This document shows, in pieces, positions 8,057 to 30,295 of a DNA stretch of 30,295 nt (its first letter is position 1; each line of letters begins with the position of its first letter). The stretch spans positions 1 through 30,295 of the forward strand of contig JBKJSQ010000057.1 of assembly GCA_046594495.1 (NCBI GenBank), in the 5' to 3' direction. Position numbers and translations under genes: made by a program. The notes under the pieces were generated by a model, which saw only the letters and a program-made list of their open reading frames with translations, ran no database searches and was not told where the DNA came from. The DNA is from Minisyncoccia bacterium (GTDB lineage: Bacteria; Patescibacteriota; Minisyncoccia; Phycocordibacterales; UBA2100).

Positions 8057-8704
8057 TTACGCAGTAACCGGAGCAGCAGATTCCGCGGGCACGACTTCGC
8101 TCGCCTTATGACCAAGTGTTCGATACGCGTATACCATCGCGAGCGACGATACCGGAATCGTGACGAGGAGCGGCACGAGCAAGAGAATCGCACCAACGAT
8201 ATTGATGACCGCTATCGCGAGCACAAACAGGAAGAGTGTCATGCGGTTTCCTTTTGTAATACGCACGCTTTCCTTGAGGGCTTCGATTGGGCTGAGTTTA
8301 CGATCAACGATGATGAATTTTACGAACAAAAGTGCGACTGCAGCAATAATGCCCGGAACGATGAGGAGCACGAGCCCTACGACTACGATGGCAGCAGTCA
8401 AAAGTGTGGCAGCGAGGTATGGCAGGTATTGTTGCGGATGCCAAAGATCCGAAAGTGTTGCACTCTCCGGATTGTCGAAGATCTTCAGCATCGTAGCCAC
8501 CACACCAAGGTCGACGAGCGTTGTGATTGCAAGGTTTAGGAGGCCTCCAATCATGTTGCCCTCTTTACCTATCATCCCGATTACAAATCCCGTCACCCAT
8601 GACACCATGAGAATAATGACCGTCATACCGATAAAAAAACCAGGGCGCTTTTTAAAGGTTTCCCAGCCAAACTTAAACGCCGCTTCTATAGAAAATGTTT
8701 GCAT
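8057..8704 (-). CDS. Conserved membrane protein (DUF975/GDPD-membrane-domain-like)
   Basis: Hydrophobic; LLIVPGII, IEALKESVRITKGN pattern typical of this family. Confidence 0.7.
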   Translation of the reverse strand: MQTFSIEAAFKFGWETFKKRPGFFIGMTVIILMVSWVTGFVIGMIGKEGNMIGGLLNLAITTLVDLGVVATMLKIFDNPESATLSDLWHPQQYLPYLAATLLTAAIVVVGLVLLIVPGIIAAVALLFVKFIIVDRKLSPIEALKESVRITKGNRMTLFLFVLAIAVINIVGAILLLVPLLVTIPVSSLAMVYAYRTLGHKASEVVPAESAAPVTA

Positions 8705-8768
8705 AGCTCAACGCTAGCACGAGAACGGGCGTTTCCTAGTCGTTACAGTGGAGACGACAATGGAACAA

Positions 8769-10448
8769 TCAGGGAAGCATGTCGAGCAAACGAAGCGCGA
8801 GTCCACCGCGGAATGTGTCGCGTTCGATCGTAACAATGGCAGTCGTCGGGGCCTCGAGTGAGGGAACCTGAGTAAAATCATCCGGTCCGCGGAAAAAGTC
8901 GTACGCGCGCTGCTCACAACCGGTTTCGGTGCATGTGAGCGTGACTTCCACATGATTTTTTTCCTTTCCGAATCGCTTCATACTTGTCACCTTGGCCTGG
9001 CTAATGCGTACTTTCGGCTTCGGATTGCCCATGCCAAACGGTGCGAGTTTCGCCATGTCACGAAAGAGCGGCCACGACACCTGTTCGAGCGTCAGTGTCA
9101 TGTCGTGCGAAATAAGCTCTTTCTCCGCAGCACGTTCGAGCGTAGTAGCTGCGCGAGCCATGTCTTCCTGCAGCGTATGCACCTTGTCGGGAACCACGGA
9201 GAATCCCCCCGATGCCGCGTGACCACCGAACTCCTCGAACGAATCTTTGGCTGCAGTAAAAAGTTCCACAACCGAAAGTGAGCCATCGGAGCGGCACGAA
9301 CCTTTGATCGCACCGTTCCCATCGCGCCCCCACAAGCACACCACGCCACCGCGATCATTCATGATTGAGTTTGCAGCGAGACCGAGTAGCGCCGGCTTCC
9401 ATTCCGGATTTCCAAGCACCACCACGTGATCGGATTCAGTGAAGCGCTCTTTTGCCCGTTTCTTAATTTCGCGCACGATCCCCGCGACGACCACCTTTCG
9501 TGTCGCGAACAGTTTTTCAAGATCCGAGGCAATCGCGTCTGCCTCCGCATGGTCTTTTGTAGTAAGCAGTTTGAACGCAAGCAATGGCTCACCCATACGC
9601 GATGCCGCATTGATACGTGGCCCAATGGAGAACCCAATATCTTCTTCGGTGAGCTCTGCTTTTCGTAGTCGAAGCTTTATGCACAGCGCTGTTATTCCCG
9701 GTCGCGGCGATTTGCGCAGTACCTGGAGTCCCCAATGAGCGAGCACCCGATTCTCCCCAATGAGCGGCACCATATCGGCAATAGTTGCAATAGCGACCAA
9801 ATCGAGCAGCCATTTTTCCCACCCGTTAGGAACGCTCAAGTAGCGAGCAATCTCGCGGCGCTTCCCTTCGCGAATTGTTGCCTGCACAAGCTTGAACGCC
9901 ATCGCAGCTCCACAGAGATCAGGAAACGGATATTCACCTCTCTTTGGGTTGAGTATCGCAATAGCTTTGGGTGCATCCCCAATGAGCTCATGGTGGTCGG
10001 TGACAATTACGTCCACGCCGAGCATGTTTGCGTGCGCAACGGCGTCAAACGCATTGGTGCCAACATCAACAGTAATAATGAGCTTTACAGCGTCGCCGGC
10101 GAGCTCAGTTATGGCAGCGGTATGAAATCCGTATCCCTCGCGATCGCGATGCGGAATGTAGATGCGTACATTCTCGTAGCCAATTTTTGCAAAGAAATCA
10201 CTCAATACGGATGCGCCAGGAATGCCGTCGCAATCAAAGTCGGCATACACCGCGATTCGCTCGTTATTCTCGATTGATCTGATCATCCGATCCGTCGCAA
10301 GCGACATGTCGGCGATGAGCTCGGGGGCGTGCGTGTGCGCATCGTAATCAGGTTGCAGAAATACTCGAATTTCGTCTGCAGTTGTCACGCCGCGCCCCTT
10401 GAGGAGTGAGCGTACAACATCGCTCAACTCGATCTCGGCAGTTTGCAT
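8769..10448 (-). CDS. recJ: Single-stranded DNA exonuclease RecJ
   Basis: DHH motifs YADFDCDG, ITVDVG, VTDHH, ATIADMV, GPRINAASR, GGHAASGG and LAPFGMGNP; start MQTAE 7 nt after TACAAT. Confidence 0.93.
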   Translation of the reverse strand: MQTAEIELSDVVRSLLKGRGVTTADEIRVFLQPDYDAHTHAPELIADMSLATDRMIRSIENNERIAVYADFDCDGIPGASVLSDFFAKIGYENVRIYIPHRDREGYGFHTAAITELAGDAVKLIITVDVGTNAFDAVAHANMLGVDVIVTDHHELIGDAPKAIAILNPKRGEYPFPDLCGAAMAFKLVQATIREGKRREIARYLSVPNGWEKWLLDLVAIATIADMVPLIGENRVLAHWGLQVLRKSPRPGITALCIKLRLRKAELTEEDIGFSIGPRINAASRMGEPLLAFKLLTTKDHAEADAIASDLEKLFATRKVVVAGIVREIKKRAKERFTESDHVVVLGNPEWKPALLGLAANSIMNDRGGVVCLWGRDGNGAIKGSCRSDGSLSVVELFTAAKDSFEEFGGHAASGGFSVVPDKVHTLQEDMARAATTLERAAEKELISHDMTLTLEQVSWPLFRDMAKLAPFGMGNPKPKVRISQAKVTSMKRFGKEKNHVEVTLTCTETGCEQRAYDFFRGPDDFTQVPSLEAPTTAIVTIERDTFRGGLALRLLDMLP

Positions 10449-25090: not shown

Positions 25091-25279
25091 ATGCCACCGA
25101 TCGTTGACAAAGTTCCACATCAACGAGCAACACGCGAGGATGGTGCGGGACCAATAATTGGCGCCATCATTATCGTGATTCTCCTCGTATTTGGCGCGCT
25201 CTATTTTTGGGGTCAGAAACTCAATAAACGCACTCCACCGACCGCCCCGCTCGTACAAAGTCAGATCGTGATTGATTAA
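25091..25279 (+). CDS. Small single-TM protein
   Basis: MPPIVDK...GAGPIIGAIIIVILLVFGALYFWG; start 6 nt after TACTAT. Confidence 0.6.
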   Translation: MPPIVDKVPHQRATREDGAGPIIGAIIIVILLVFGALYFWGQKLNKRTPPTAPLVQSQIVID

Positions 25280-25373: not shown

Positions 25374-26522
25374 ATGAATACTGAAAGCAAAAAGGCTGCC
25401 CACTCATTTTTAAATGTGAATATAACCCGCGATTCTGAGCGCTGGGAAACGGAAATTCGCGCGGAAATTCCGGTCGAGGTGCTCACCAAGTACCGCGGAG
25501 TCGCACTCAAGGAGATGCAAAAGACCGCAAAGCTCGATGGCTTCCGTCCCGGCAAGGCACCCGAGGACCGAATTCTCGCAGTCTATGGGGAATCACAGGT
25601 ATTGCGCCGTGCAGTTGAGCACGCAATCGAGAATGAGCTCCCGCTCTTACTCGCATCTGAGAAGCTCCCTATTGTGGAAGCCCCACGAGTAACGACCGAC
25701 ACACCAACGCTCGATAAGCCGGTCACCTTTACCGCACGTGCCGCACTCGCTCCAGAAATTGCACTCGGTGACTACAAATCCGTTGCCAAGAAGCACACTG
25801 ATATCAAGGAAGATACGAGCGTCTCTGACGCTGAGCACACCGAGGCACTCACTCATTTGCGTCGCGAACGTGCGCGCATCGATCGCATCGAGTCTGGCAC
25901 AGAACCGCAAAAGGCAGCTGAGGAAACGAAGGCGCTTGCGGAAACCGACCTTCCAGAGCTCGACGACACGTTCGTGCAGACGCTCGGCTACGAGAACACT
26001 ACTGCGTTCACGACCGCACTTCGCAATAACATCCAAACCGAAAAAGAGATGCGCGCGAGCGAAAAGCGCCGCGCTGGTATCCTCGACGACATGGTGAAGG
26101 GCTCTAAGATATCCTACCCTGTTTCACTTCGCGCATTTGAACTCGACGAAATGGAGGCGCGCTTGAAGGACGACCTCTCGCGCATTGGCCAAACGATCGA
26201 GCAATACCTTGCAGAAACAAAGAAGACTCGTGAAGAGCTCCTTGCAAGCTGGAAGGATGCCGCAGATAAGCGCGCAAAAGTACGTCTTATTCTTTCAGAG
26301 ATTGCACGACAAGAAAATATAAATCCACCAGCTGCGGAGCTAGAACATGAACTCGAGCACGCGCGAGAGCACTATCCAAAAGCGGATCCCGAAAATCTCC
26401 GCGCACACATTTCGCACGCGATGCGTAACGAAATGACACTGCGCTTCCTCGAAGGAAATCCAGAGCCGGTCGGCCACACCGCTTCGAGTCACGGAGGGCA
26501 AGCCGCCCACGCTCACAAATAA
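25374..26522 (+). CDS. tig: Trigger factor lacking the FKBP/PPIase domain
   Basis: Ribosome-binding signature LDGFRPGKAP, then a short linker directly into LPELDD and the C-terminal domain; 382 aa. Confidence 0.9.
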   Translation: MNTESKKAAHSFLNVNITRDSERWETEIRAEIPVEVLTKYRGVALKEMQKTAKLDGFRPGKAPEDRILAVYGESQVLRRAVEHAIENELPLLLASEKLPIVEAPRVTTDTPTLDKPVTFTARAALAPEIALGDYKSVAKKHTDIKEDTSVSDAEHTEALTHLRRERARIDRIESGTEPQKAAEETKALAETDLPELDDTFVQTLGYENTTAFTTALRNNIQTEKEMRASEKRRAGILDDMVKGSKISYPVSLRAFELDEMEARLKDDLSRIGQTIEQYLAETKKTREELLASWKDAADKRAKVRLILSEIARQENINPPAAELEHELEHAREHYPKADPENLRAHISHAMRNEMTLRFLEGNPEPVGHTASSHGGQAAHAHK

Positions 26523-26549
26523 GAAAAGGCCCTCACGTACCATTCCTGA

Positions 26550-26673
26550 AATCCAAGGGTAACCCTTGGATTGAGCTCTAGGGTGACCTCACTTAGCGAG
26601 GGTTCCCCTCGCTATAACTCGACCAAAGTGCGCCGAAGGGCGATCTTTGCTGTTTCCAAGGGTAGTCCTTGGA
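26550..26673. repeat. Cluster of three REP-like palindromes (AGG-N5-CCT core)
   Basis: aatccaaggg-taa-cccttggatt (26550-26572), tagcgaggg-ttc-ccctcgcta (26594-26614), tccaaggg-tag-tccttgga (26655-26673). Confidence 0.65.
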
Positions 26674-26688
26674 GTAGTCACAAATAAC

Positions 26689-26714
26689 AAAACGGCACCT
26701 CGCGGTGCCGTTTT
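26689..26714. terminator. Bidirectional terminator
   Basis: aaaacggcacc-tcgc-ggtgccgtttt. Confidence 0.85.
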
Positions 26715-26736
26715 CGGTGTGCAGACACATGCGGTG

Positions 26737-27000
26737 TCAGCTTCGTTGTTTCGGCTCATAGTTTAAAAGCGCAAACGTAGTGCCCTGCCCTTTCGTTATT
26801 GCGATATGGGGGTCATCGCCATAGGCCGACGGATCACGAACGGTATGAGGCGACTCTTGTGGCGGAACGAAGGCTACCAGTCCCATATCGCCGGCAGCGA
26901 TGATGGTTGGAAGCATTTCGGCACCAAGATGAACCGGCTCTGCCGTGTCCAACAGTCGCACGAGTTCCGTGACTTGCCTGCTCGCAGTGTACGTACTCAT
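26737..27000 (-). CDS. Hypothetical protein
   Basis: TTGACA-17-CATAAT promoter (27056-27028), GGAGA SD before MSTYTAS, terminator downstream; alternative start at 27012. Confidence 0.6.
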   Translation of the reverse strand: MSTYTASRQVTELVRLLDTAEPVHLGAEMLPTIIAAGDMGLVAFVPPQESPHTVRDPSAYGDDPHIAITKGQGTTFALLNYEPKQRS

Positions 27001-27375: not shown

Positions 27376-27552
27376 CTACTCCAATTGATAATGGGAGTAG
27401 TTATAGTAGTGTCCGCCGCCATAATCAGAAGAGTCGTACGAGGCGCCGGTGGAGACAACCGACTGTTTCTTATACGCAACGCTGATGTTGAAGTCCCCGA
27501 CCATGTACAGGGCGAGCACAACTCCGACGAGGAACGAGATCACATGGGTCAT
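27376..27552 (-). CDS. Array cargo: 58-aa membrane-anchored peptide with a Tyr/Ser/Gly-rich tail
   Basis: AAGGAGG SD right after repeat R7; MTHVISFLVGVVLALYMVG...SDYGGGHYYNYSHYQLE. Confidence 0.6.
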   Translation of the reverse strand: MTHVISFLVGVVLALYMVGDFNISVAYKKQSVVSTGASYDSSDYGGGHYYNYSHYQLE

Positions 27553-27745
27553 AGGCACCTCCTTTATCAATTCGGGAACCATTCCTGAACTGAACAAAAG
27601 CCTCGATATTACGCGTCGAGGAGGCGCGTCCCTTGCGGGTGTGCTTTTTCCGGTTGCGCACAACGCGCAAACGGTAACGGTTGTCGGCAAGCGAACGCGC
27701 GGATTCGCTTCGGCGCTTCGGCGCGGGACCGGTGATCTGTTTCAT
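27470..27745 (-). CDS. Array cargo: ArfA-like basic protein; ORF reads through a terminator hairpin and repeat R7
   Basis: GAGGAGG SD after R6; SLADNRYRLRVVRNRKKHTRKGR resembles the ArfA LxDPxFRxRVxxxKK..xRK core but lacks GKGS. Confidence 0.45.
   Translation of the reverse strand: MKQITGPAPKRRSESARSLADNRYRLRVVRNRKKHTRKGRASSTRNIEAFVQFRNGSRIDKGGAYDPCDLVPRRSCARPVHGRGLQHQRCV
27567..27593 (-). repeat. Array hairpin repeat R7
   Basis: Minus strand tcagttcaggaa-tgg-ttcccgaattga. Confidence 0.8.
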
Positions 27746-27762
27746 ATAACATACCTCCTCTA

Positions 27763-27790
27763 TCAACCCGCGAACCATTTCGCGGACTGA
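27763..27790 (-). repeat. Array hairpin repeat R6
   Basis: Minus strand tcagtccgcgaa-atgg-ttcgcgggttga. Confidence 0.9.
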
Positions 27791-28218
27791 AAAGAATGGA
27801 CGATGACGCTCGTCCGGACGGATAGTAATCGGGATATCAGCCCACGCGTCAATACGCGCTGTCGACGACAAAGTCGCCGAATGAACGGCCGCTGTGGCCG
27901 CTCACATCTTCTACCGGGAGGCCCTCTATCTCCCGACAGTAGTACTTGCCGCTGCCCGGTCCGGAGGATTACTGTCCGCGCTCCAAGCTCCTTCGCTTGT
28001 CGCACGAGTGCAGCAACTTCCGGTTGCAGGCCGCGATCGCAGCAGCCGTCTTGGCAACAGTACGGCAGGCGCCGACCATTGCTGAAGCGGAGCCCGTACC
28101 GGCTCGACGAACGCTTCAGGATGTGGACGGTCTTCGCGACCACGATCGCCGTCGTGCGATCCGCAGTCAGAATGACTGCGCCGGCGGTCGAGGCGGTAGC
28201 GAAGTGAGTGTCGGTCAT
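27763..28218 (-). CDS. Array cargo: hypothetical protein with a CCQDGCC cysteine cluster; stop codon lies inside R6
   Basis: GGAGGG SD before MTDTHF; 151 aa; the C-terminal third crosses hairpin-rich sequence. Confidence 0.5.
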   Translation of the reverse strand: MTDTHFATASTAGAVILTADRTTAIVVAKTVHILKRSSSRYGLRFSNGRRLPYCCQDGCCDRGLQPEVAALVRQAKELGARTVILRTGQRQVLLSGDRGPPGRRCERPQRPFIRRLCRRQRVLTRGLISRLLSVRTSVIVHSFQSAKWFAG

Positions 28219-28262
28219 GTGGTGCCCTCCAAGAGCGATGCGCAGAATTGCGCAGAATTTTA

Positions 28263-28289
28263 TCAACCCGCGAATCATTCACGAGCTGA
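28263..28289 (-). repeat. Array hairpin repeat R5
   Basis: Minus strand tcagctcgtgaa-tga-ttcgcgggttga. Confidence 0.85.
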
Positions 28290-28323
28290 ATAAATAGGAC
28301 GAGCCGTGGCTCGTCCTGTTTGA

Positions 28324-28548
28324 TCATAAGCGGTCGAGTTCTCGCAAGGCGTCGTTGGTTTCATCTTGCCCGAAGACACGATTACTTTCTTCAACAGCCT
28401 CGCTCCACTCATCGCACTTATCATCGTATGTATAGCTCTCCGATATATACAACCAATCTTCGTAAGCCTTTTCTTGTTGTTCTTCTAAGACTGCGCGAAG
28501 AAAACTGATTGCACTATAGTTTCGCTCTACAAGGTACTTGATATCCAT
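28324..28548 (-). CDS. Array cargo: acidic 74-aa protein
   Basis: AGAGGA SD before MDIKYL; followed by a strong hairpin (28296-28317) and R5. Confidence 0.6.
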   Translation of the reverse strand: MDIKYLVERNYSAISFLRAVLEEQQEKAYEDWLYISESYTYDDKCDEWSEAVEESNRVFGQDETNDALRELDRL

Positions 28549-28620
28549 TTGTAATCCTCTGTTAGTTGCCTTCGCCACCATGATCGGATTACAAACGCGA
28601 GCAGCTCACTCCCTTTTCGA

Positions 28621-28648
28621 TCAACCCGCGAACGATTTCACGGACTGA
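28621..28648 (-). repeat. Array hairpin repeat R4
   Basis: Minus strand tcagtccgtgaa-atcg-ttcgcgggttga. Confidence 0.9.
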
Positions 28649-28698
28649 AAGGAATGGACGATGGCGCTCGTACGCACGGAGAATGCTTTCACATCCGC

Positions 28699-29289
28699 TC
28701 ACATCTCAGTGAGCAGTACTGTTGTAGGTGATATGAGTGTCGGCATCGACAACACCGGTGTCGACATACACCGCTGCTGCGAAGAGCAGTCCGCACGCCA
28801 CAGCAACACCGACGACGACACCTGCCGAAAAGAGCACAATTCTACGCATATATTTCTCCTTAAAACTCTATCAACCCGCGAACGATTTCGCGGACTGAAA
28901 AGAACGGGCGAATGGTGTTCACCCTTAGAAAGTACTTCCACGAAACCGGTGTGCCGAAACACCATGGTCTTTTTGGTAGACCCGTCCGGCTGCGACACTT
29001 CAGTGCTTTCACGTTTGGAAAACGCGTAGAGCACTTTGATGTTCGCCCGCACAAGCGCGACTTCGAGGGGCGCCATGAAATACGGTGCGCCACCGATCAT
29101 TGCAGCGCCGCAACCAGACTCCCGCGCAATGTCAGCGAGCTTAGCGGCGCGCTGAGCAAGCAGGCCGGTGCTCGGGAGCTCGTCAAACGTCAGATACATC
29201 TGGACGAGCGACTTCTTGTCGGTCTCAACCACGCCGACGGCGAGCTGATCCGCAGTCGCTTCGTGTTGAGTCAGATTCAAGATACGCAT
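28699..29289 (-). CDS. Array cargo: Csx20-like protein (about 120-aa core) with a read-through tail across R3
   Basis: ILNLTQHEATADQ...AMIGGAPYFM...LYAFSKRES..QPDGSTKKTMVFRHTGFVEV; GAGG SD after R2. Confidence 0.55.
   Translation of the reverse strand: MRILNLTQHEATADQLAVGVVETDKKSLVQMYLTFDELPSTGLLAQRAAKLADIARESGCGAAMIGGAPYFMAPLEVALVRANIKVLYAFSKRESTEVSQPDGSTKKTMVFRHTGFVEVLSKGEHHSPVLFSPRNRSRVDRVLRRNICVELCSFRQVSSSVLLWRADCSSQQRCMSTPVLSMPTLISPTTVLLTEM
28706..28849 (-). CDS. Array cargo: 47-aa single-TM peptide
   Basis: Manually translated MRRIVLFSAGVVVGVAVACGLLFAAAVYVDTGVVDADTHITYNSTAH; AAGGAGA SD right after R3. Confidence 0.6.
   Translation of the reverse strand: MRRIVLFSAGVVVGVAVACGLLFAAAVYVDTGVVDADTHITYNSTAH
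28871..28898 (-). repeat. Array hairpin repeat R3
   Basis: Minus strand tcagtccgcgaa-atcg-ttcgcgggttga. Confidence 0.9.
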
Positions 29290-29531
29290 GTGTGTATTCC
29301 TCGCTCTATCAATTCGCGAACCATTTCGCGGACTGAAGAAAGCGGGGAAGATTGGTCTTCCCCGGAATATTCGCTTGCCTCACGGCGGCGATCGGCTTTT
29401 GCACGATCGGCACGGAGGTTCTCAAGCTGGACGAAGAACTCACCCCGCGCATTGCGCTCACTGAGTACGCGCAGCGCTACGCTGTAGCCACTCTGCGCGA
29501 ACATAAGTGCGACGTGCTTGCGTGTCATCAT
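29277..29531 (-). CDS. Array cargo: hypothetical protein reading through R2
   Basis: GAGGG SD right after R1; no stop before the hairpin at 29343-29364. Confidence 0.5.
   Translation of the reverse strand: MMTRKHVALMFAQSGYSVALRVLSERNARGEFFVQLENLRADRAKADRRREASEYSGEDQSSPLSSVREMVRELIERGIHTCVS
29309..29336 (-). repeat. Array hairpin repeat R2
   Basis: Minus strand tcagtccgcgaa-atgg-ttcgcgaattga. Confidence 0.9.
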
Positions 29532-29547
29532 GTGGCATCCCTCATCT

Positions 29548-29575
29548 TCAATCCACGAACTATTTCATGGGCTGA
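29548..29575 (-). repeat. Array hairpin repeat R1
   Basis: Minus strand tcagcccatgaa-atag-ttcgtggattga. Confidence 0.85.
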
Positions 29576-29694
29576 AGAAAGGTGCGGAGTAAGGCTCCGC
29601 ACAACCTATGGTGATGTTCAGCATCTGGCCGTAATAAAACGGCAAGATTGAGAACTTCTGTTGCCAAGCGACACCACATCGCTCCGTTGCCATG

Positions 29695-29895
29695 TTAATG
29701 GAGACGGTATCCGTCGAGAGAACGCTCAAGAAACGCGAGCGCTTCGTCAGGATAACCGGACTTCTCCATGTACAAGGCGAATGCCAGGATGTCATCGTCT
29801 GACACGCTCCGACGGGGGCACTTCAGTGCAACAAACCCCCGAACGAAATCATGTGTTCCGATGACACGCCCGTCGATAGAAATAACCTGCCTCAT
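29695..29895 (-). CDS. First gene of the array region, hypothetical 66-aa protein
   Basis: GGAGGGG SD before MRQVISIDG. Confidence 0.55.
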   Translation of the reverse strand: MRQVISIDGRVIGTHDFVRGFVALKCPRRSVSDDDILAFALYMEKSGYPDEALAFLERSLDGYRLH

Positions 29896-29919
29896 GTAGT
29901 CCCCCTCCGTGAAGTTGAT

Positions 29920-30295
29920 GAAAGAACGCGAGTGCACTCATGTACACACGAAACGAAATCGCGAGAGCTGTTTGACTGATGATGCGGTCTAGAACCCGTA
30001 CCCACCTTTCAAACTTCGGGGCTGGACATCCCCATGGCGCTCTCTTCCACACTCACACCGTATCTCGCGCCGAGACACAATATGAGATTACGAAGAACGG
30101 CGTGCGCGGTAAGCATTTCGCTGACCGCCCTACCGTCCTTTTTTCTGCATCCACAGCCTTTCGGACCTGTGGAAACGAAAAGGTAGTCGTTGGCTACCCC
30201 TGACCCGGCAACGGCATGCGCCGCCCCGAGTAACCTCTTTGGAATCCGAAGATTCCTTCGCTAGCGGTAATCGCCCCAGAGTTAACCACCAAAAG
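29920..30295 (-). ncRNA. Highly structured non-coding region or long leader RNA, continuing beyond the window
   Basis: Several stems with UUCG/GAAA loops and G-U pairs that form only on the minus strand; no convincing ORF. Confidence 0.5.

What the first reader, a model, noticed from the sequence alone, without database searches (positions are those of the whole stretch)
29920..30295. Dense structured non-coding RNA upstream of the array, on the same strand
Seen (minus strand): ggaatc-UUCG-gattcc (30256-30241) inside a taactct/agaggtta stem, a G-U-rich ggcggc/gccgtt stem, ggtag/ctacc (30198-30182), ccacag..cc-GAAA-gg..ctgtgg (30172-30151), and nested aggacgg/ccgttct around gcggt..gaaa..accgc (30139-30094). 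At least 370 nt has no credible ORF and I recognise no rRNA, tRNA, RNase P or intron landmarks. Inference: the 3' part of a large ncRNA or a leader that may license read-through of the array's terminators (put/EAR-like antitermination) or otherwise serve as the RNA component of the system.
Basis: partly seen in the sequence, partly recalled or inferred. Interest (0 to 1): 0.65.

Follow-up and report, generated by a model that had tools for sequence, protein, structure and literature searches.

The report
BoxA-bearing structured leader of stress operon
The folded RNA is real: it is the back half of a roughly 700-base, uncatalogued leader RNA in some tiny uncultured (CPR) bacteria, which starts like a ribosomal-RNA operon but heads a row of small, partly stress-related genes, and probably helps RNA polymerase and the transcript get through that row.

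Summary

The window is a whole contig of a Kaiserbacteria-like (CPR) genome. Contig C68 continues it (13-nt overlap, colinear with a relative), giving a ~700-nt leader:
- an rRNA-like sigma70 promoter flanked by two operators;
- a boxA matching this genus's 16S, 23S and tmRNA leaders;
- a covarying long hairpin and rod ending in a two-way GAUUCC/GGGAUC pairing;
- a modular 3' half, which is most of the flagged region. Its 30139-30094 stem covaries in four genomes.

The leader was found in 11 of 116 genus genomes, in an island (TrmB-like regulator, leader, small-gene array, often with an ArfA-like gene) between tig and clpP. It was not found in order or class samples or in viral contigs.

Best reading (about 0.5): a Nus-factor-loading leader that keeps this long, mostly untranslated operon processive and folded. 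Against it: Rho is missing and the array's terminators are weak. Main rival: a released stable ncRNA. The scan has noted boxA leaders on other CPR DNA, but not this family. Function is untested.

The parts
29896..30295 (-). 3' ~400 nt of a ~700-nt structured leader RNA. The 5' ~300 nt (promoter, operators, boxA, long hairpin H1, 5' strand of the rod) lie on contig G000:C68 at 8641-8998.
   Evidence: 13-nt overlap with the C68 end and colinearity with G080; joined leader z = -7.2, window part z = -4.6
30251..30295 (-). 3' strand of the conserved rod: UUUUGGUGG (30294-30286), YUAA bulge (about 30285-30282), CGAUUACCG (30273-30265), GCGAAGGAAUC (30261-30251). Its partners are on C68.
   Evidence: joined fold; rod base 94% paired, 7 of 18 pairs with two-sided change in 9 homologues
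30241..30256 (-). Alternative hairpin GGAAUC-UUCG-GAUUCC, competing with the rod base for GGRAUC (possible conformational switch)
   Evidence: both pairings possible in 11 of 11 homologues, 64/66 and 66/66 cells; predicted balance varies from 0.06 to 0.99
30151..30235 (-). Three tandem hairpins (30235-30201, 30200-30180, 30172-30151), shared in sequence mainly with G080; variable elsewhere
30094..30139 (-). Module F: two covarying helices around an invariant internal loop UAGG / GYACG, followed by the linker UCGUAAUC (30093-30086)
   Evidence: model R2 finds it in 4 of 116 genus genomes, always in this leader
30052..30086 (-). 16-bp G-U-rich hairpin; a hairpin of different sequence occupies this slot in other module-F carriers
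29957..30051 (-). Module G: helix RGAGY/RCUCY with a 4-nt bulge, closing a variable multibranch domain. Inferred from homologues; the single-sequence fold of this genome prefers another arrangement.
   Evidence: 25/25 and 19/20 cells paired, 2 pairs with two-sided change in 5 genomes
29920..29947 (-). Last hairpin followed by UUCUUUC; not scored as a terminator, and not conserved as one in G080 or G138
29695..29908 (-). Shine-Dalgarno (29908-29901) and first array gene (29895-29695, 66 aa), with homologues at first position in G003, G028 and G070
27376..29694 (-). Rest of the small-gene array with seven double-hairpin junctions; includes an MJ1673-family gene (starts 29289) and an ArfA-like gene (starts 27745)
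25374..26522 (+). Trigger factor gene (tig), fixed distal flank of the island; clpP is the other flank, on C68

Best explanation
The region is the 3' part of a regulated, rRNA-operon-style leader. Shown by sequence comparison: a strong sigma70 promoter (TTGACA, 16-bp spacer, TATACT) sits between two TGYCA-N8-TGACA palindromes, a boxA follows 21-99 nt after the start, then a covarying hairpin-and-rod core, then interchangeable hairpin modules, then the gene array. Inferred: the adjacent TrmB-like protein binds the palindromes and gates the promoter. Inferred: on induction boxA loads NusB-S10, NusA and NusG as at the 16S, 23S and tmRNA genes, and the modified polymerase, helped by the structured core in the manner of conAn2 or EAR, transcribes and folds 700 nt of untranslated RNA and passes the weak terminator-like junctions of the array. 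The transcript is then probably cut or trimmed at those junctions (RNase III and an RNase Y-like gene are present), giving separate small mRNAs, including a stop-less ArfA-like message. The flagged 400 nt are accessory modules of this leader, not its most conserved part.
For: Promoter conserved in 11 of 11 leaders with a 16-bp spacer in 10; 6 of 9 rRNA promoters of the genus also have 16. An 11-nt boxA matrix trained only on 16S, 23S and tmRNA leaders scores a site in all 11 leaders, 10 of them above 97% of random genome windows. Four leaders, plus G023, carry the full 19-nt rRNA-type box. The core matches B. subtilis boxA AUGAUCUUUGAAA, shown to bind NusB (PMC13753749). NusA is in the window; NusB and NusG are in 5 of 5 genomes. 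Core covariation: 93.4% paired, 19 of 41 pairs with two-sided change, 0/500 shuffles. No terminator scored inside the window part of the leader. Leader and array share one fixed island, while tig-clpP are adjacent in three genomes lacking it. A 260-600 nt structured RNA doing this job is known (conAn2, PMC8191782).
Against: Rho was not found in 5 of 5 genomes and SuhB in only 1 of 5. Without lambda N, Nus factors are documented against Rho-dependent termination, not intrinsic termination (PMC5725501). Junction U-tracts are weak (median 5 of 8, usually not starting with U), so read-through may need no help. In this genome and G080 the box lacks the 3' extension and can pair into a hairpin (mean pairing 0.5). 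G003 has a full leader but only two array genes. Homologues are few and related. There are no expression data.
Confidence: 0.5

Rival explanations
1. The leader, or its conserved core, is cut out and works as a stable non-coding RNA in its own right, for example as a decoy or scaffold for a protein during stress. boxA is there because, as for rRNA and tmRNA, the Nus complex chaperones its folding.
For: In this genus boxA marks stable-RNA genes (16S, 23S, tmRNA). Rho is missing, which leaves folding as the likely job of the Nus complex. Invariant unpaired or internal-loop nucleotides in the rod and in module F look like binding sites. The core is kept while the genes behind it turn over. One array carries Ro60.
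Against: There is no conserved 3' end or terminator. Leader length and 3' modules vary freely (three types). The RNA was never seen away from the array and was found in one genus only.
Confidence: 0.27
2. The core is a cis-acting switch or processing signal. The GAUUCC/GGGAUC/GAUUCC alternative pairing, or RNase III cleavage of the rod, sets the stability or translation of the downstream message in response to a protein or ligand.
For: Both pairings are kept in 11 of 11 sequences. The rod is a long irregular duplex and RNase III is present in 5 of 5 genomes.
Against: No terminator, Shine-Dalgarno site or leader peptide is coupled to the switch; the first gene lies about 40 to 350 nt downstream. 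The competing strands show no two-sided change, so the alternative may only reflect sequence constraint.
Confidence: 0.15
3. The flagged 3' 400 nt are mostly a protective, RNase-resistant spacer made of hairpins gathered by recombination, with no specific function beyond stability.
For: G028 and L053 lack most of it, and other genomes replace it with unrelated modules.
Against: Modules F and G keep invariant loop sequences with compensatory changes across 4-5 genomes whose sequences barely align by BLAST.
Confidence: 0.08

Closest known systems
rRNA-operon leader antiterminator (boxB-boxA-boxC; NusB-S10, NusA, NusG, SuhB, S4), and boxA sites at CRISPR arrays and suhB
   Same: Strong 16-bp-spacer promoter, boxA 21-99 nt after the start, long untranslated hairpin-rich leader, Nus genes present.
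   Different: No rRNA follows. The core has no similarity to this genus's rRNA leaders. The promoter carries operators. Rho and mostly SuhB were not found. The cargo is small protein genes.
conAn2 RNA of Gram-positive conjugation operons (PMC8191782)
   Same: A 260-600 nt structured RNA near the start of an operon with several internal terminator-like sites.
   Different: No conjugation genes; fixed chromosomal site; boxA present (the conAn paper does not mention boxA); no ConAn1 partner identified.
HK022 put and Bacillus EAR RNA antiterminators
   Same: Cis-acting structured RNA ahead of or within a long operon.
   Different: Much larger than put or EAR, no Rfam match, and it carries a Nus-factor loading site.
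Large bacterial ncRNAs GOLLD, ROOL, OLE and the raiA motif
   Same: Size of 500-700 nt, dense structure, unknown function; raiA also lies ahead of translation-stress genes (own knowledge).
   Different: No Rfam match. Only about 250 nt are conserved, the 3' half is modular, no pseudoknot was established, and the range found is one genus.

Membership tests
rRNA-type boxA antitermination leader | boxA sequence near the 5' end of the transcript | tested here: met
   core in 11 of 11 leaders, full 19-nt form in 4 plus G023; only the core in this genome
rRNA-type boxA antitermination leader | NusA, NusB and NusG encoded | tested here: met
   (S10 not searched)
rRNA-type boxA antitermination leader | SuhB encoded and Rho present as the target | tested here: not met
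   SuhB family 1 of 5, Rho 0 of 5 genomes of 90-100% completeness
rRNA-type boxA antitermination leader | rRNA gene downstream, or homology to the rRNA leader beyond boxA | tested here: not met
rRNA-type boxA antitermination leader | boxB hairpin and boxC | not tested
   hairpins precede boxA in most leaders but no specific test was made
rRNA-type boxA antitermination leader | NusB-S10 binding and read-through activity | not testable with these tools
   needs a biochemical or reporter assay
conAn bipartite antiterminator | conAn1 gene directly upstream, at the start of a conjugation operon | tested here: not met
   upstream gene is TrmB family, separated by a divergent promoter; no conjugation genes seen in the arrays
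processive antitermination operons | final terminator with an unusually long stem (TerR, 15 bp; PMC10325885) | tested here: inconclusive
   distal terminators 10-15 bp with 6-7 U, stronger than the junctions, but only some reach 15 bp
EAR, GOLLD, ROOL, OLE, raiA, riboswitches, introns, tmRNA (Rfam 15) | covariance-model match at gathering score | tested here: not met
   window, C68 end and ten homologous loci
RNase P RNA | match to RF00010, as the genome's RNase P gene | tested here: not met
   RNase P RNA lies elsewhere in 5 of 5 genomes
leader-peptide attenuator | conserved short ORF coupled to a terminator in the leader | tested here: not met

The most novel reading that the evidence does not exclude
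In bacteria without Rho, a large RNA teams up with the rRNA Nus complex to form a new RNA-based antiterminator for intrinsic terminators, or is released as a new class of stress-induced structured RNA. It would control an island of ribosome-rescue and RNA-damage or counter-defence genes (ArfA-like, Ro60, a weak AcrIII-1-like match).
Probability: 0.25. Interest if true: 0.8.

Novelty: new variant of a known kind. Interest (0 to 1): 0.56.

Why it matters
It defines an uncatalogued, covariation-supported RNA family with a precise promoter, operators and boxA. It shows the rRNA antitermination signal reused for a protein operon in bacteria where Rho was not found. What the Nus-boxA complex does where Rho is dispensable is an open question (PMC13753749). 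This locus supplies a natural test substrate: leader plus junction hairpins in front of a reporter. It also gives a first handle on regulated stress gene expression in CPR bacteria.

Tried and rejected
Searches that found nothing useful:
- Rfam on the window, the C68 end and homologues gave no family.
- BLAST of the flagged DNA against 60 relatives found nothing; homologues came only through the array hairpin pattern and motif searches.
- Viral contigs: four patterns, no match. Model R1 found nothing around six phage homologues of the MJ1673-family gene.
- Order and class samples: 0 of 150 each; only 15 candidates per genome were scored, so weak homologues may be missed.
- Phylum-wide promoter pattern: four 2-mismatch hits. 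The one inspected (G563) drives an ordinary gene.
- Sequencing runs: no RNA holder listed, and no listed contig piece bridged the contig end. This is no evidence either way.

Chance hits discarded: L050/L055, L057/L059, L063, L064 (they lack the promoter and rod).

Readings considered and dropped:
- Group II intron domain V: the GAAA at about 30010 lies in another helix.
- RNase P and tmRNA.
- Pistol or hairpin ribozyme for module F, and a Y-RNA Ro-binding helix: judged by eye from recalled consensus, no match.
- Integron attC or dif sites for the repeats: G-U pairs and variable loop length.
- The 5' GUCAG/CUGAC hairpin as RNA structure: better explained as a DNA palindrome with a fixed 8-bp spacer.

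The 19-nt boxA matrix failed in 7 of 11 leaders, including this genome; only the 11-nt core holds throughout. That shorter matrix was chosen after this failure, so its scores are somewhat favourable. Alignment A6 had wrong coordinates and was discarded.

Full report
SETTING. The window is the whole contig C71 of a 1.14-Mb, 164-contig genome, 95.6% complete. Public records carrying the same element are titled Candidatus Kaiserbacteria, Paceibacterota or Patescibacteria, and one Saccharibacteria. Most of the window is housekeeping genes. Its last 3 kb, on the minus strand, hold an array of small genes separated by a repeated hairpin, preceded by the flagged region.

OBSERVATION. The minus strand of 29900-30295 folds with z = -4.09 and the plus strand with z = -1.79. 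Rfam has no match. No reading frame is conserved among homologues. Two need correcting once the missing 5' half is added: the taactct/agaggtta stem vanishes (probability 0.0), and ggaatc-UUCG-gattcc is one of two competing pairings.

EXTENDING THE CONTIG. The array hairpin pattern found arrays in other genomes of the genus. G080 holds a homologue of the flagged RNA (nhmmer E = 1.5e-23) with 1.6 kb of upstream DNA. A covariance model of the shared core (R1) then hit the end of contig C68 of the window's own genome. C68 ends in 13 nt identical to the first 13 nt of the window's minus strand and is colinear with G080 across the join. The overlap is short and no read bridged it, so the join is inferred, but the resulting gene order is that of the contiguous relatives. 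The leader runs from about C68:8687 to window 29896, about 700 nt, z = -7.2.

ANATOMY (shown by comparison). First, a sigma70 promoter TTGACA / TATACT with a 16-bp spacer in 10 of 11 leaders; 6 of 9 rRNA promoters of the genus have the same spacing. Second, the palindrome TGYCA-N8-TGACA over the -35 box and again, with up to two mismatches, over the start site. Two of only three perfect copies in the genome are here. Third, boxA. The genus's 16S, 23S and tmRNA leaders carry a B. subtilis-like box (PMC13753749). A 19-nt matrix from those sites scores four leaders above all 5000 random windows but fails in seven, including this genome. The 11-nt core, chosen afterwards, scores a site at +21 to +99 in all 11, ten above 97% of random windows; here it is at +75, fraction 0.0006. 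Fourth, a long hairpin and a rod with a YUAA bulge: 93.4% of cells paired, 19 of 41 pairs with two-sided change, 0/500 shuffles, slid controls 43-47%. The window holds the rod's 3' strand. Fifth, GGRAUC at the rod base can pair upstream or downstream in 11 of 11 sequences, with no two-sided change. Sixth, a modular 3' half of three types. The window's type is shared with G080, G138, G003 and partly G136: module F (30139-30094) and module G (30051-29957). These counts come from few, related sequences, and the structures were derived from them, so they support pairing but are not formal probabilities.

DISTRIBUTION. R1 hits 10 of 116 genus genomes, and G023 has the 5' part at a contig end, making 11; one metagenome variant adds a further type. 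None was found in 150 genomes each of the order and class or in viral contigs. The element sits in an island, TrmB-like gene, leader, array, placed in reverse between tig and clpP wherever assembly allows the check. tig and clpP are adjacent in G008, G016 and G033, which lack it. Array content varies. An ArfA-like gene is in 10 of 116 genomes, eight of them leader carriers; G106 is truncated upstream and G129 has a stand-alone copy. Its ArfA link is weak (E = 0.06 to ArfA structures; DUF7230). Other cargo includes Ro60, an MJ1673-family gene, a weak STIV B116/AcrIII-1-like match (E = 0.0075) and a hammerhead-like RNA below gathering score. G003 and G099 have the leader but no ArfA-like gene.

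MECHANISM. The best-supported reading is an operator-gated, rRNA-style leader that loads Nus factors and carries polymerase through 700 nt of untranslated RNA and the array. NusA, NusB, NusG and RNase III are present, and no terminator was scored in the window part of the leader. Steps from boxA onward are inference. The weak points are real. Rho was not found and SuhB rarely. Nus factors alone are documented against Rho-dependent, not intrinsic, termination (PMC5725501). The 28 junctions examined have median -13.6 kcal/mol and 5 of 8 U, weaker than the distal terminators, and may be cleavage sites. If read-through of intrinsic terminators does occur, the structured core would have to supply it, as conAn2 does (PMC8191782). 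The main rival is that boxA serves folding of a stable RNA, as at tmRNA; the lack of a conserved 3' end and the free exchange of 3' modules argue against this.

COMPARISON AND NOVELTY. It works like an rRNA leader in promoter and boxA but is not one: no rRNA follows and the core has no match in rRNA leaders. It is not put, EAR, conAn2, GOLLD, ROOL, OLE, raiA, RNase P or an intron by the tests run. A search for papers on boxA in Patescibacteria returned only model-organism work among the eight listed. Earlier notes of this scan describe boxA leaders in other CPR genomes (unchecked), but none shares sequence with this family. I class it as a new variant of a known kind: a new RNA family built on a known signal, narrow in range, function untested. 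Interest 0.56.

Noticed in passing
G000:C68 about 8540 to 8270, strand opposite to the leader (in L112); same place in homologues: A divergent sigma70 promoter sits 112-115 bp from the leader's -35 box in 11 of 11 loci. In 10 of 11 it drives a micro-ORF, mostly 9-18 aa and often with a Shine-Dalgarno site, ending in GDG plus 1-3 residues and a stop. Possible regulatory or arrest peptide, convergent on the TrmB-like gene.
   Followed up: partly
window 25092-25109: Third perfect copy in the genome of the TGYCA-N8-TGACA palindrome, between ppa and tig.
   Followed up: no
L152 (G012), around 1501-1850 on the minus strand: TrmB-like gene plus the first operator and promoter but no leader or array; a tRNA-like gene follows instead. 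Suggests the operator belongs to the TrmB-like gene.
   Followed up: partly
L053 5518-5464 (minus): Hammerhead type III-like RNA inside the array (37.4 bits, E = 1.2e-4, below gathering score).
   Followed up: partly
L070 1186-2763 and 3651-4532; L069 5356-5700: Arrays carry Ro60/TROVE, a Bro-N protein near the tig end, and a weak STIV B116 (AcrIII-1-like) match.
   Followed up: partly
window about 29657-29668; L069 4883 and 5730; L034 2339; L053 5559 and 2634: A recurring motif CTTGGCAACAGAAAC lies shortly after stop codons in most arrays; function unexplained.
   Followed up: no
window 28218-27763 (minus): This gene appears frameshifted by one extra base near 27945 relative to its G080 homologue (122 aa), so it runs to the next junction hairpin. 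Could be real or an assembly error.
   Followed up: no
L129 (G020 C2), L131 (G136 C4), L123 (G070 C27): A boxA-like site lies just upstream of the tmRNA gene in G020 and at the end of an smpB-like gene in two other genomes.
   Followed up: no
G000:C12 23353-24657: rnc (RNase III) and nusB are neighbours in all five genomes checked.
   Followed up: no
L107 11834-11986 (G129): Stand-alone ArfA-like gene with its own promoter, a stop codon and a canonical terminator, outside any array.
   Followed up: partly
window 26520-26740 (minus): Hairpin-rich non-coding stretch between the last small gene and tig, with a 19-nt repeat at 26552 and 26655.
   Followed up: no
L053, between boxA and the long hairpin: Exact tandem duplication of an approximately 68-nt hairpin unit inside the leader, single in G028.
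   Followed up: no
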